From Antedon mediterranea (Eukaryota > Animalia > Echinodermata), in the NCBI RefSeq assembly GCF_964355755.1, contig NC_092671.1, positions 15,429,742-15,493,741 of the forward strand: a DNA stretch of 64,000 nt, given 5' to 3'. The notes beneath the pieces were generated by a model. It was not told the origin of the DNA. It worked only from the letters and a program-made list of their open reading frames with translations, and ran no database searches. The position numbers and the translations under genes were made by a program. Below are positions 19,901 through 22,048 of the stretch, one piece after another; position 1 is the first letter of the stretch, and the number at the start of each line of letters is the position of its first letter.

Positions 19901-22048
19901 AACAATGTCAGGTCTGATTGGGGCTGTGAAAACTGAAGGTAATGTTACATTGTTGCCACTGGCTTCACATTTCTCATTGTATACTGTAATGAGCGGACGT
20001 GCTGCAGCAACCGCCTATTAAAAAAAAGCAGTACATAAGTGAAAAAGCATGCATATCTAGGATAGGCCTAAGTCTAGGTTAGTAGTATTTTTTTTTTTGT
20101 TATAGCTAAAGATATGGTACCGTATCCATACTTCTAAAATCTAAAGGTACAGTCATTATAGAGGGCGCTATGTAAGATAGATGTTAATCAAATAGGTTAT
20201 GGCAATGGTTTCCAGCAAGAAAGGTGTGTGTGGCTTAGTGAGCTAGTGATGAGGCTATGGCTTAACCCTTTCACTGCGTATACCCGGTAACAAACGTCGT
20301 TGAAATACGTATACCCGGTAATACAAGGTATGGGCAAACAATTATTTAATCGTATTTGCCTATAATATATGGCACCCTCTATATTCTTTCGATGAACTTG
20401 AATAATTTTGCAAGTCATTAAAAAAATTTCCCAGCAAAAAAAACGGCCCTCTATAGTTGTATTATCGTCTTGAAAATAATGCGCCCTCTATAGTTAATTA
20501 TATATAGTATAGTATATATAATAGTATTTCTATCTTGGAAAGTTGTTTTGAGTAGCGTAATGGCGGCCATTTTGAAAGTAACACAAATTTACCAGCCCCA
20601 ATAGGGCAACATCGTGTTTATCACAACACACACAAAAAAAAAATTCTGAAACAATAGTTAGTTTTTGTACTAGGCCTATAGTGAATTATTGGAAACTGTC
20701 ATTATTTTCTCGATTTTGCCCCAAAACTTTGATTTGTGCATAATTTTTATAAAACAATAAAAATAATTTAATTTTTTTTTAAATATTTTTATTTGTTATA
20801 CGTATCATCAATATCCAGTTGGAAAAACGTATTCCATAAGAATTTCTTATAGAAAATATAGTTTTTATCATTGAATAGATAAAAAACTCGAAATCCAAAA
20901 TACCTGTAATGACGTCACATGACGTCATCAATATGCAAATTACTTTTTTTTTTATACCCAACTGTAAACTAACCCTTTGCCCATCACACACCACAAAAAT
21001 AATTACACAATTATCTCAATTAGTATTTTTTTACAATTTATTAAAATATCATATGTTTTTCTTAAATATATATTACGCACAGAGGTGGGAATAATGCGCC
21101 GCAGTGAAAGGGTTAAGGGGTTGCAGGTTTGATTCTCTAATTATAATTGACGGTGTTTTTTTTGGGGGGTTTAATTTAAGAGAGATTATTTAGAGGGTTA
21201 GGTTTTTAATATTTAGGAACGAGTTTTAAAATTTACTGAACAAGTTTTAATATTTAGGAACAAGTTTTAATATTTAGGAACAAGTTTTAATATTTAGGGA
21301 GTTTTAGGAATTCAATTTTACTGTACCTTTAGCAAACGGCAGTGCCATTGATCCCCCTCTATAATTACCGTACCTTTAGTTTTTAGAAGTATGGATACGG
21401 TACCGTATAGAAACAGCGTTTAACAAAATTTAGTATGACATATGGCAGCAGAATTTTAAATTCAACAAAAATCTTTTTCTTCTGATACTTAGGCTATAAT
21501 TATTATTTGAATTCATATTTAAACACTTGACATTTATAAAAGATCTAGACGCGGCCGAACCGCGACCGAATGTTGCCACATTCTGGCATGTGATGATTCG
21601 GTCGCACAAGCATTTTGCTTAACACATAAAACATATAAACGCGACCGACAAATGGGCGCGACCGAAGTGATGGCCGCTCAATTAAAATACTATTTTTCGT
21701 AGTAGAAACTATTTATTTATAATTTTAAAACGATATTCTGTTACTTCATAATATACTTAATACTCTAAGGCATATACAAATAAATTACACAAAACAAAAT
21801 CTTTACCATTTTGATTTCGTTCTGGCATGTGATGATTCGGTCGCACAAGCATTTTGCTTAACACATAAAACATATAAACGCGACCGACAAATGGGCGCGA
21901 CCGAAGTGATGGCCGCTCAATTAAAATACTATTTTTCGTAGTAGAAACAATTTATTTATAATTTCAAAACGATATTCTGTTACTTCATAATATACTTAAC
22001 ACTCTAAGGCATATACAAATAAATTACACAAAACAAAATCTTTACCAT
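16974..22048 (-). CDS. RPL4: 60S ribosomal protein L4 (uL4); 7 well-supported coding exons plus a putative ATG-only exon 1
   Basis: The minus-strand exons translate to a canonical RPL4: [15 protein letters not shown]..., [200 protein letters not shown]...[11 protein letters not shown], and a lysine-rich tail ...[27 protein letters not shown] followed by a stop. CDS exons (plus coordinates, transcribed right to left): 19837-20014, 19334-19579, 18956-19080, 18452-18581, 18046-18202, 17384-17630, 16974-17078 (stop 16974-16976). Splice phases are consistent across all junctions. Exon 2 opens directly at an acceptor (tttttttaatag|GCGGTT) with no ATG, so the initiator must sit in a tiny upstream exon. 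The best candidate is minus-strand aaaATG|gtaaag at 22046-22048, duplicated at 21807-21809, preceded by TTTATATAAAGAGC (TATA-like), a CCAAT box and a TGACGT half-site at about 22075-22150. Confidence 0.85.
17158..17358. repeat. Structured hairpin element in the last RPL4 intron: 35-bp outer stem plus an internal 11-bp stem
   Basis: aagcctgtttttctgtcgacgttattcgacgctatcgt at 17158-17195 is the reverse complement of acgatagcgtcgacgtcgacaggaaaacaggctt at 17323-17358. An inner hairpin atcgtcgttga...tcaacgacgat sits at 17188-17225. No C/D box motifs were found. Confidence 0.45.
17749..17830 (-). ncRNA. C/D-box snoRNA, U18 (SNORD18)-like, copy 1, intronic in RPL4
   Basis: The minus strand reads cagag-tata-TGATGA-ttcAACTTCTGGTCCGTGTTT-ATGA-...-ccaagaagta-CTGA-tctctg. 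It has a C box (TGATGA), a terminal D box (CTGA) and a 5-6 bp terminal stem (CAGAG/CTCTG). The 12-13 nt guide GGTCCGTGTTT is complementary to the LSU rRNA motif AAACACGGACC and sits immediately upstream of the D' position. Confidence 0.7.
18307..18386 (-). ncRNA. C/D-box snoRNA, U18-like, copy 2, intronic in RPL4
   Basis: Same C-box, guide and D-box architecture as copy 1. The terminal stem is TTGACAG/CTGTCAA. Confidence 0.7.
18847..18926 (-). ncRNA. C/D-box snoRNA, U18-like, copy 3, intronic in RPL4
   Basis: Same architecture as copy 1. The terminal stem is ACAGAG/CTCTGT. Confidence 0.7.
19181..19260 (-). ncRNA. C/D-box snoRNA, U18-like, copy 4, intronic in RPL4
   Basis: Same architecture as copy 1: TGATGA, the ttcaacttctggtccgtgttt guide and a terminal CTGA. 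Confidence 0.7.
19707..19790 (-). ncRNA. C/D-box snoRNA, U18-like, copy 5 (most diverged, canonical D' box), intronic in RPL4
   Basis: The minus strand reads ...aaaTGATGAgccAACTTCTGGTCCGTGTTG-CTGA-tttcatgtgacgttattcaggaagtt-CTGA-tcta. This is a complete C / guide / D'(CTGA) / D(CTGA) layout with the same rRNA-complementary guide. Confidence 0.65.
20265..21112. mobile_element. Non-autonomous piggyBac-like MITE (about 848 bp) with TTAA target-site duplications and 13-bp TIRs CCCTTTCACTGCG
   Basis: The left end reads TTAA|CCCTTTCACTGCG at 20261-20277 and the right end reads CGCAGTGAAAGGG|TTAA at 21100-21116. There is no long ORF inside. Subterminal direct repeats of cgtatacccggtaa are present, and an internal twin CRE palindrome aatgacgtcacatgacgtcat lies at about 20915. 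Confidence 0.6.
21181..21300. repeat. About 22-bp tandem repeat (aggaacaagttttaatattt) x about 4
   Basis: Direct reading of the sequence. Confidence 0.6.

What the first reader, a model, noticed from the sequence alone, without database searches (positions are those of the whole stretch)
20115..21404. Nested DNA transposons in RPL4 intron 1: a piggyBac-like TTAA/13-bp-TIR MITE inside a 50-bp-TIR element, carrying a twin CRE palindrome
The inner element (20265-21112) has piggyBac hallmarks: TTAA flanks, 13-bp TIRs beginning CCC (CCCTTTCACTGCG), no ORF, and subterminal direct repeats. It sits inside a second element with 50-bp TIRs (20115-20170 and 21352-21404). Its interior contains aatgacgtcacatgacgtcat, two overlapping CRE/ATF sites forming a larger palindrome. 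This places a potential cAMP-response module within the first intron of a ribosomal protein gene, next to the bidirectional promoter. Both elements look like uncatalogued non-autonomous families.
Basis: seen in the sequence. Interest (0 to 1): 0.5.

Follow-up and report, generated by a model that had tools for sequence, protein, structure and literature searches.

The report
Nested transposon relics in RPL4 intron
Intron 1 of the ribosomal protein L4 gene of a feather star (Antedon mediterranea or a near-identical relative) holds a short non-coding piggyBac-type transposon inserted into an older inverted-repeat element, which is an ordinary finding in a transposon-rich invertebrate genome.

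Summary
The sequence features are real. An 847-bp ORF-less element (20266-21112) has perfect 13-bp terminal inverted repeats (TIRs), CCCTTTCACTGCG, and is flanked by TTAA on both sides. It sits inside a 1297-bp unit bounded by a 54-nt inverted repeat (93% complementary; 20112-20165 and 21355-21408). Both lie in intron 1 (20015-22045, minus strand) of RPL4. The window's RPL4 is 361/362 identical to the Antedon mediterranea protein.

The inner element meets both sequence hallmarks of the piggyBac superfamily. Its TIR is 12/13 identical to that of coral piggyBac MITE family CMITE-VI. The same 17-mer end bounds about 11 distinct small TTAA-flanked MITEs in metagenomic DNA.

The outer element is a long-TIR MITE of undetermined superfamily; a TA duplication is the leading candidate.

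The "twin CRE" is two TGACGTCA octamers separated by CA, a 10-bp tandem repeat. The octamers do not overlap and the whole is not a perfect palindrome. Nothing supports a regulatory role, and the Anneissia japonica ortholog lacks the insertion.

Copy number, empty sites and a cognate transposase could not be tested, because the host genome was not searchable. Verdict: an ordinary nested transposon insertion, a new member of a known kind, of low interest.

The parts
20015..22045 (-). RPL4 intron 1 (2031 bp). Exon 1 ends with the ATG at 22048-22046 and exon 2 starts at 20014. The nested elements fill 1297 bp (64%) of the intron.
   Evidence: tblastn of RPL4. The protein is 361/362 identical to A. 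mediterranea XP_071942678.1, with N-terminus MAVAAARPL. The GT donor and AG acceptor were read from the sequence.
20112..20165 (.). Left arm of the outer inverted repeat (54 nt). It contains two GGTAC-type motifs and ends inward in TATAGAGGG.
   Evidence: I1 (93% complementary); (24-mer core found only at the two arms, 0.00 expected).
21355..21408 (.). Right arm of the outer inverted repeat. An extra subterminal copy of ACTGTACCTTTAG lies at 21320-21332.
   Evidence: I1, D9, I15.
20113..20114 (.). Candidate TA target-site duplication of the outer element, left copy. The right copy is at 21406-21407, which would make the element 20115-21405. This is unproven.
   Evidence: Systematic TSD scan. 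Other long-IR elements in the window likewise end TA...TA. An 8-bp alternative, TAAAGATA/TATAGAAA, matches 6/8 at the same borders.
20262..20265 (.). TTAA, left copy of the target-site duplication of the inner element.
   Evidence: (I4).
20266..21112 (.). Inner non-autonomous piggyBac-like element, 847 bp, non-coding.
20266..20278 (+). Left 13-bp TIR, CCCTTTCACTGCG.
   Evidence: It is 12/13 identical to the coral CMITE-VI TIR CCCTTTCACTGCCA (PMC2872659).
21100..21112 (-). Right 13-bp TIR (CGCAGTGAAAGGG on the + strand), a perfect complement of the left TIR.
21113..21116 (.). TTAA, right copy of the target-site duplication of the inner element.
20277..20321 (+). Left subterminal direct repeats: CGTATACCCGGTAA twice (20277-20290 and 20308-20321), 14/14 identical.
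   Evidence: D10.
20364..20496 (+). Three direct repeats of a (G/C)NCCCTCTATA(G) motif (cores at 20375, 20447, 20484). The same 9- to 12-mer also occurs at the inner end of both outer arms.
   Evidence: D6-D8, I20.
20910..20927 (.). Twin CRE: TGACGTCA CA TGACGTCA, a 10-bp tandem repeat of ATGACGTCAC, 185 bp from the right end of the inner element.
21204..21298 (+). 20-bp tandem array (TTTTAATATTTAGGAACAAG x4.7) in the interior of the outer element.
   Evidence: D1.

Best explanation
Two successive cut-and-paste DNA transposon insertions.

First, a roughly 446-bp non-autonomous element with terminal inverted repeats of about 51-54 bp landed in intron 1 of RPL4, 97 nt upstream of the 3' splice site. 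It probably made a TA duplication, which would be a Tc1/mariner or Stowaway-like mode, but the superfamily is unproven.

Later, an 847-bp non-coding element of the piggyBac superfamily inserted into a TTAA inside that element and duplicated the TTAA.

Both elements encode nothing and would depend on transposases supplied in trans. For the inner one this would be a piggyBac DDE transposase that binds the CCCTTT... ends and subterminal repeats, cuts at TTAA and reinserts at TTAA (established mechanism for the superfamily; not shown here).

The twin TGACGTCA is passenger sequence of the inner element, plausibly made by slippage duplication of a 10-mer. No function at this locus has been demonstrated.

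Shown: the anatomy, the host gene and intron, the match to piggyBac hallmarks, and the absence of coding capacity. Inferred: mobility, the order of insertion, and trans-mobilisation.
For: - Perfect TTAA + 13-bp TIR at both ends. The chance expectation for such pairs is about 0.
- The TIR starts CCCT and is 13 bp long. The published hallmarks are 12-19 bp TIRs with a CC[C/T]T terminus plus a TTAA duplication. Coral CMITE-VI has the TIR CCCTTTCACTGCCA, and the autonomous AmiPB1 has CCCTTTCCCGTCC (PMC2872659).
- Of 120 metagenome loci with the exact 17-mer, 15 (about 11 distinct) carry an inverted partner with TTAA 73-561 bp away, against about 0.2 expected by my estimate.
- One locus (L048) extends the similarity to 41 nt at 88% at the right end.
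- No ORF with any homolog, and no RNA family match.
- The inner TIRs and TTAA copies are perfect, while the outer arms differ at 4 of 54 positions. This fits a younger insertion inside an older one.
- The window is full of similar long-IR elements: 41 pairs of at least 24 nt, many ending TA...TA.
- PiggyBac-class repeats are reported in another crinoid (PMC11861897).
- The orthologous A. japonica locus keeps the dynein-RPL4-Zwilch order but has neither element.
Against: - There is only one copy of each element in hand. No second copy exists in the 64-kb window, and the host genome could not be searched.
- No empty-site allele is available.
- No piggyBac transposase was found in the window or in any fetched locus.
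- Other superfamilies are also reported to make TTAA duplications (Kolobok and some Sola groups; from memory, not tested).
- At 847 bp the inner element is at the upper end of MITE size.
- The outer element's target-site duplication is ambiguous (TA, or an imperfect 8-mer).
- A 9- to 12-nt motif is shared between the inner element and the outer arms and is unexplained.
Confidence: 0.8

Rival explanations
1. The inner element belongs to another TTAA-duplicating superfamily (for example Kolobok or a Sola group) rather than piggyBac.
For: A TTAA duplication alone is not unique to piggyBac (my own knowledge, not tested). No transposase was found to anchor the classification.
Against: The 13-bp TIR with a CCCT terminus is the piggyBac hallmark. 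It is 12/13 identical to a coral MITE family that its authors tie to piggyBac through shared hallmarks and related families (PMC2872659).
Confidence: 0.07
2. The twin CRE has been co-opted as a CREB/ATF-responsive intronic enhancer for RPL4 or the divergent Zwilch gene.
For: There are two consensus TGACGTCA octamers one helical turn apart. The octamer is about 17-fold over-represented in the window, 9 found against 0.54 expected, in unrelated contexts. This suggests bZIP sites are used in this genome.
Against: The site lies inside a structurally intact (likely young) transposon, about 1.1 kb downstream of the start codon. The insertion and any TGACGTCA are absent from the 24-kb A. japonica ortholog. 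The other MITEs that share the TIR show no general association with CREs. No expression or binding data are available.
Confidence: 0.05
3. The outer inverted repeat is not a transposon but a local inverted duplication or foldback in the intron.
For: There is a single copy only. The target-site duplication is ambiguous. Each tip is itself a 14-nt palindrome (ATACGGTACCGTAT).
Against: The arms carry internally repeated motifs plus an extra subterminal copy (D9, I15). The interior is AT-rich with a 20-bp tandem array. The TA flanks resemble many other IR elements in the same window. All of this is typical MITE anatomy.
Confidence: 0.12
4. The whole 1297-bp unit is one composite mobile element, like the coral CMITE-IN, that moves by its outer ends.
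For: CCCTCTATA-type motifs are shared between the inner element and both outer arms. There is a precedent for new elements created by piggyBac MITE insertion (PMC2872659).
Against: The shared motif is only 9-12 nt. The inner element has its own perfect ends and TTAA duplication, and the outer arms are more diverged than the inner ones.
Confidence: 0.05

Closest known systems
Coral piggyBac-derived MITEs (CMITE families I-VI) and the autonomous AmiPB1 of Acropora millepora (PMC2872659)
   Same: TTAA duplication and a 13-14 bp TIR starting CCCTTT. The family VI left TIR, CCCTTTCACTGCCA, matches 12 of the 13 TIR bases here. Both are non-coding and found in introns. That paper also describes insertion of one element into a TTAA of another repeat.
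   Different: CMITEs are about 100 bp long with a conserved internal region. This element is 847 bp and shows no similarity to any fetched relative beyond the ends. The host is a crinoid, not a coral.
Trichoplusia ni piggyBac (IFP2), the type element of the superfamily
   Same: TTAA target, 13-bp TIR of the form CCC...GGG, and subterminal repeats near the ends (my own knowledge of the type element).
   Different: There is no transposase gene here. The TIR sequence differs after CCCT. No similarity to the T. ni transposase was found anywhere in the window.
Stowaway-like (Tc1/mariner-mobilised) MITEs with long TIRs and a TA duplication
   Same: The outer element is about 446 bp without its insert, has inverted repeats of about 51-54 bp, an AT-rich interior, and TA on both flanks.
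   Different: The TA duplication is not proven from a single copy. The termini (T/CGGTACCG...) do not resemble any Tc1/mariner ends I know. No cognate transposase has been identified.
Canonical cAMP response element (TGACGTCA) pairs in promoters
   Same: Two perfect consensus octamers spaced 10 bp start to start.
   Different: The pair is carried inside a transposon in an intron. It is not conserved in the A. japonica ortholog, and no binding or response data exist.

Membership tests
piggyBac superfamily (non-autonomous member) | TTAA target-site duplication flanking the element | tested here: met
   TTAA at 20262-20265 and 21113-21116, directly abutting the TIRs.
piggyBac superfamily (non-autonomous member) | 12-19 bp TIRs with a CC[C/T]T terminal motif (5'-CCC...GGG-3') | tested here: met
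   13-bp perfect TIR CCCTTTCACTGCG. The definition and the near-identical coral TIR come from PMC2872659.
piggyBac superfamily (non-autonomous member) | Ends shared with an autonomous element that encodes a piggyBac DDE transposase (PF13843) | not testable with these tools
   No transposase in the window or in the 137 fetched loci. The A. mediterranea genome is not searchable.
piggyBac superfamily (non-autonomous member) | Multiple dispersed copies, each with its own TTAA duplication | tested here: inconclusive
   No second copy in the 64-kb window or in 24 kb of A. japonica. The identical 17-mer end does bound about 11 distinct TTAA-flanked MITEs in metagenomic DNA of unknown hosts.
MITE (miniature inverted-repeat element) | Small size (usually under about 800 bp), no coding capacity, TIRs and a target-site duplication | tested here: inconclusive
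   It is non-coding and has TIRs and a duplication, but 847 bp is at or above the usual size limit. High copy number was not testable.
Tc1/mariner-type (Stowaway-like) MITE, for the outer element | TA target-site duplication | tested here: inconclusive
   TA at 20113-20114 and 21406-21407 fits, but a palindromic dinucleotide at the tip of an inverted repeat from a single copy is weak evidence.
hAT superfamily, for the outer element | 8-bp target-site duplication and short TIRs | tested here: inconclusive
   The best 8-mer, TAAAGATA/TATAGAAA, matches only 6/8. TIRs of 51-54 bp are atypical for hAT.
cAMP response element | Consensus TGACGTCA | tested here: met
   Two perfect octamers at 20910 and 20920.
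cAMP response element | CREB/ATF binding and cAMP-dependent activation | not testable with these tools
   No expression, chromatin or binding data are available.
Conserved cis-regulatory module of RPL4 | Presence in the orthologous intron of related species | tested here: not met
   The A. japonica locus L001 has no homolog of either element and no TGACGTCA in 24 kb. Introns are not alignable between the two species.

The most novel reading that the evidence does not exclude
The inner element belongs to a dispersed piggyBac MITE family that carries a ready-made twin CRE. It would have seeded CREB/ATF-responsive sites across the Antedon genome, including in the first intron of a ribosomal protein gene. 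Alternatively, the CCCTCTATA motif shared by the inner and outer elements could mark a common host or transposase binding module exchanged between unrelated MITE families, as with the conserved core of the coral CMITEs.
Probability: 0.04. Interest if true: 0.5.

Novelty: new member of a known kind. Interest (0 to 1): 0.12.

Why it matters
It matters little beyond annotation. It documents a piggyBac-type non-autonomous family and a long-TIR MITE in a crinoid, a group whose mobile elements are barely catalogued. It also shows that the CCCTTTCACTGC-type piggyBac end recurs in corals, in crinoids and in unidentified hosts of metagenomic DNA. It would matter more only if a genome-wide survey showed that the family is numerous, recently active, and spreads functional CRE pairs near genes.

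Tried and rejected
- Searching the window for further copies of either TIR or of the interior found none.
- A concatenated six-frame translation of the whole 1.3-kb unit against 5.8 billion proteins, meant to catch gene-called copies in other assemblies, found nothing.
- Fetching the A. mediterranea locus through its RPL4 protein failed because it is not on record.
- The A. japonica ortholog (L001) has introns that do not align and holds no copy of either element.
- The metagenome scan for the 17-mer end returned at least 120 loci. Many are probably chance 17-mers. About 16 are one conserved spot in an abundant marine phage that is also present in IMG/VR. Only the roughly 11 distinct loci with an inverted TTAA-flanked partner were counted as evidence.
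- T. ni piggyBac transposase by tblastn and phmmer against the window and all loci gave no hit.
- The outer TIR 20-mer has 0 hits in prokaryote genomes. The 16-mer has 6 hits in viral contigs that were not examined further.
- Rfam at permissive E-values over 20000-22200 found nothing. Pfam on the element's ORFs found nothing.
- An association between CREs and the other MITEs sharing the TIR was checked and not found.
- A full-text search for the TIR sequences turned up only the coral CMITE paper.
- The apparent relation between the outer TIR tip and 33066-33081 (the shared 12-mer ATGGTACCGTAT next to another CRE pair) was rejected because similarity stops after 12 nt.
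Full report
**1. What is in the sequence**

Inner unit:
- It is bounded by an 18-nt perfect inverted repeat (I4). This resolves into one chance base pair, TTAA (20262-20265 and 21113-21116), and a 13-bp TIR, CCCTTTCACTGCG (20266-20278 and 21100-21112).
- The element proper is therefore 20266-21112, 847 bp.
- The 17-mer TTAACCCTTTCACTGCG occurs only at these two places in the window.
- I scanned for TTAA-flanked perfect TIRs of at least 10 bp within 5 kb. 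The window has three; 30 first-order Markov simulations of the window had none.
- The other two are a tRNA-like inverted pair (38403-38830) and an AT-rich pair. Neither starts with CCC.
- Subterminal direct repeats exist: CGTATACCCGGTAA twice, 31 bp apart (D10), and three CCCTCTATA-type repeats (D6-D8).

Outer unit:
- A 54-nt inverted repeat, 93% complementary, lies at 20112-20165 and 21355-21408 (I1).
- Its 24-mer core has 0.00 expected chance matches.
- Without the insert it is about 446 bp, AT-rich, and carries a 20-bp tandem array of 4.7 units.

Twin CRE:
- The sequence is TGACGTCA-CA-TGACGTCA at 20910-20927.
- TRF reads it as the 10-mer ATGACGTCAC repeated 1.9 times.
- The minus-strand match has two mismatches. 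It is therefore a tandem pair of palindromic octamers, not overlapping sites and not a perfect larger palindrome.

**2. Host and gene context**

- The assembled protein's best database hit is Anneissia japonica at 94%.
- The second member of that 90% cluster is the Antedon mediterranea uL4A-like protein XP_071942678.1. My model is 361/362 identical to it. The single difference sits at a splice junction I had guessed.
- The window is therefore A. mediterranea or something nearly identical.
- The shared N-terminus MAVAAARPL means exon 1 contributes only the ATG (22048-22046, followed by gtaaag). Intron 1 is 20015-22045.
- The nested unit fills 64% of the intron and ends 97 nt upstream of the 3' splice site. 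This leaves a TACTAAC-like branch site and the pyrimidine tract untouched (read).
- Upstream on the other strand is Zwilch. Its first coding exon at 22989 aligns with the start of the A. japonica gene, and there is a Pfam Zwilch hit at 28742-29032.
- The divergent arrangement is therefore real, with about 940 bp between the two ATGs.
- The CRE pair lies about 1.1 kb inside RPL4, not next to the promoter.

**3. What the inner element is**

- It has no coding capacity. The longest frames are 71-96 aa. The three longest, one of which runs across the left junction into the outer element, have no Pfam match. The concatenated translation of all frames has no homolog among 5.8 billion proteins. No Rfam family matches.
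- The literature search for the TIR returned Wang et al. 2010 on coral MITEs (PMC2872659).
- That paper states the hallmarks of the piggyBac superfamily: 12-19 bp TIRs with a CC[C/T]T terminal motif and TTAA duplications.
- It lists CMITE family VI with the left TIR CCCTTTCACTGCCA, which matches 12 of the 13 TIR bases here. It also lists the autonomous AmiPB1 (601-aa transposase) with the TIR CCCTTTCCCGTCC.
- A 17-mer can occur by chance in a collection of that size. About 16 loci are in fact one conserved intergenic spot of a gene-dense marine phage that also appears in IMG/VR.
- However, 15 loci (about 11 distinct) carry an inverted copy of the TIR with at most 3 mismatches, followed by TTAA, 73-561 bp downstream. 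My estimate of the chance expectation over all 120 loci is about 0.2.
- These are small TTAA-flanked MITEs from unidentified hosts with the very same end.
- One locus (L048) shares 41 nt at 88% with the right end of the window element.
- Beyond base 13 the distinct ends show no conservation. This fits many families sharing only the transposase-recognised tip.
- Both sequence-level defining features of the superfamily are therefore met.
- The protein-level feature, a cognate DDE transposase, could not be tested. Neither the window nor any fetched locus has similarity to the T. ni transposase. The A. mediterranea genome is not on record in the assembly index.
- PiggyBac-class repeats are reported by RepeatMasker in another crinoid, Metacrinus rotundus (0.16%; PMC11861897).

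**4. What the outer element is**

- Its arms contain repeated GGTAC-type motifs and an extra subterminal copy of ACTGTACCTTTAG (D9 and I15). This is typical of transposase-binding repeats.
- A systematic border scan gives TA at 20113-20114 and 21406-21407 (element 20115-21405) as the simplest duplication. An 8-mer at the same borders matches only 6/8.
- The window holds 41 inverted-repeat pairs of at least 24 nt within 4 kb. Many of the long ones end TA...TA. A TA-duplicating, Tc1/mariner-mobilised MITE is therefore the leading reading, but one copy cannot prove it.
- No copy was found in A. japonica or in prokaryote genomes.

**5. Order and age**

- The inner TIRs, both TTAA copies and the 14-nt subterminal repeats are all perfect. 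The outer arms differ at 4 of 54 positions.
- This fits a younger piggyBac-type insertion into a TTAA of an older element.
- Removing 20266-21116 restores ...GGCTATGGC-TTAA-GGGGTTGC... inside the outer element.
- Neither element is present in the A. japonica ortholog. Introns do not align at all between the two species, so this dates nothing precisely.

**6. The CRE pair**

- TGACGTCA occurs nine times in the window against 0.54 expected from a first-order model. The contexts are unrelated, and they include a second pair at 33125 and 33145 in a CpG-rich stretch. The octamer seems to be favoured in this genome.
- That makes binding by bZIP factors plausible but says nothing about function here.
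- The pair sits inside a structurally intact transposon. It is absent from the ortholog, which has no TGACGTCA in 24 kb. It is not a general feature of the other MITEs sharing the TIR.
- I treat it as passenger sequence. Co-option is a low-probability rival.

**7. An unexplained detail**

CCCTCTATA or its complement occurs six times between 20157 and 22340 and nowhere else in the window:
- three times in the inner element;
- once at the inner end of each outer arm;
- once upstream of RPL4.

One 12-mer is shared exactly between the outer left arm and the inner element. There is no extended homology around it. Family consensus sequences are needed to interpret it.

**8. Verdict**

The transposon interpretation is supported as far as a single locus allows. 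The regulatory reading is unsupported. This is an ordinary nested insertion of non-autonomous DNA transposons in a repeat-rich crinoid genome. It is probably an uncatalogued family, so a new member of a known kind, and of low interest.

Noticed in passing
window 17749-19780, minus strand: Five SNORD18 C/D-box snoRNA copies sit in RPL4 introns (19710-19780, 19184-19254, 18850-18920, 18307-18377, 17749-17819), all above Rfam gathering score. They cross-match copies in the A. japonica RPL4 gene. Human RPL4 also hosts SNORD18 paralogs (my own knowledge), so the host-gene relation looks ancient.
   Followed up: partly
window 14039-14148, + strand: A full-length 5S rRNA match (55.8 bits) lies inside the dynein heavy-chain gene region. 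It could be a 5S pseudogene or a 5S-derived SINE.
   Followed up: no
window 21581-22061: A 239-bp tandem duplication (2.0 copies, 98%) in RPL4 intron 1 copies the 3' end of exon 1 with its ATG and GT donor. A decoy 'aaatcaaaATGgtaaag' therefore sits about 240 bp inside the intron (near 21806).
   Followed up: partly
window 20910, 20920, 33125, 33145, 40123, 48425, 53077, 55704, 61684: The CRE octamer TGACGTCA occurs 9 times against 0.54 expected, in unrelated contexts. The second pair (33125 and 33145) lies in a CpG-rich, promoter-like stretch. None occurs in the 24-kb A. japonica locus.
   Followed up: partly
window 20157-22340: CCCTCTATA/TATAGAGGG is clustered six times here and absent from the rest of the window. 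It is shared by the inner element, both outer arms and a site about 280 bp upstream of the RPL4 ATG. This is unexplained.
   Followed up: partly
window, whole (for example 30638-30859, 35498-35695, 36735-36941, 10369-10886): The window holds 41 inverted-repeat pairs of at least 24 nt within 4 kb. Many long ones end TA...TA, which suggests abundant TA-duplicating MITEs in this genome.
   Followed up: partly
window 38403-38494 / 38739-38830: A 92-nt inverted pair (96%) begins with a tRNA-like D-arm sequence (GTGGCCGAGTGGTTAAG). It is probably two tRNA-derived SINE copies or a foldback. It shows up as a false TTAA-flanked 'TIR' pair.
   Followed up: no
window 24559-24684; L001 1675-1807, 13557-13688, 20536-20612: A repeat of about 130 bp in the window has three copies (77-79% identity) in the 24-kb A. 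japonica locus. This is a repeat family shared by two crinoid genera.
   Followed up: no
window 22540-22900: A block of GGCCTAG/CTAGG-type low-complexity repeats lies between the divergent RPL4 and Zwilch genes.
   Followed up: no
L013, L015, L037, L044, L052, L062, L081, L096, L106, L113 and others; L128-L138: The 17-mer TTAACCCTTTCACTGCG also occurs at one conserved intergenic spot of an abundant, gene-dense marine phage seen in many metagenomes and in IMG/VR. This is a chance match multiplied by abundance, not a transposon end.
   Followed up: partly
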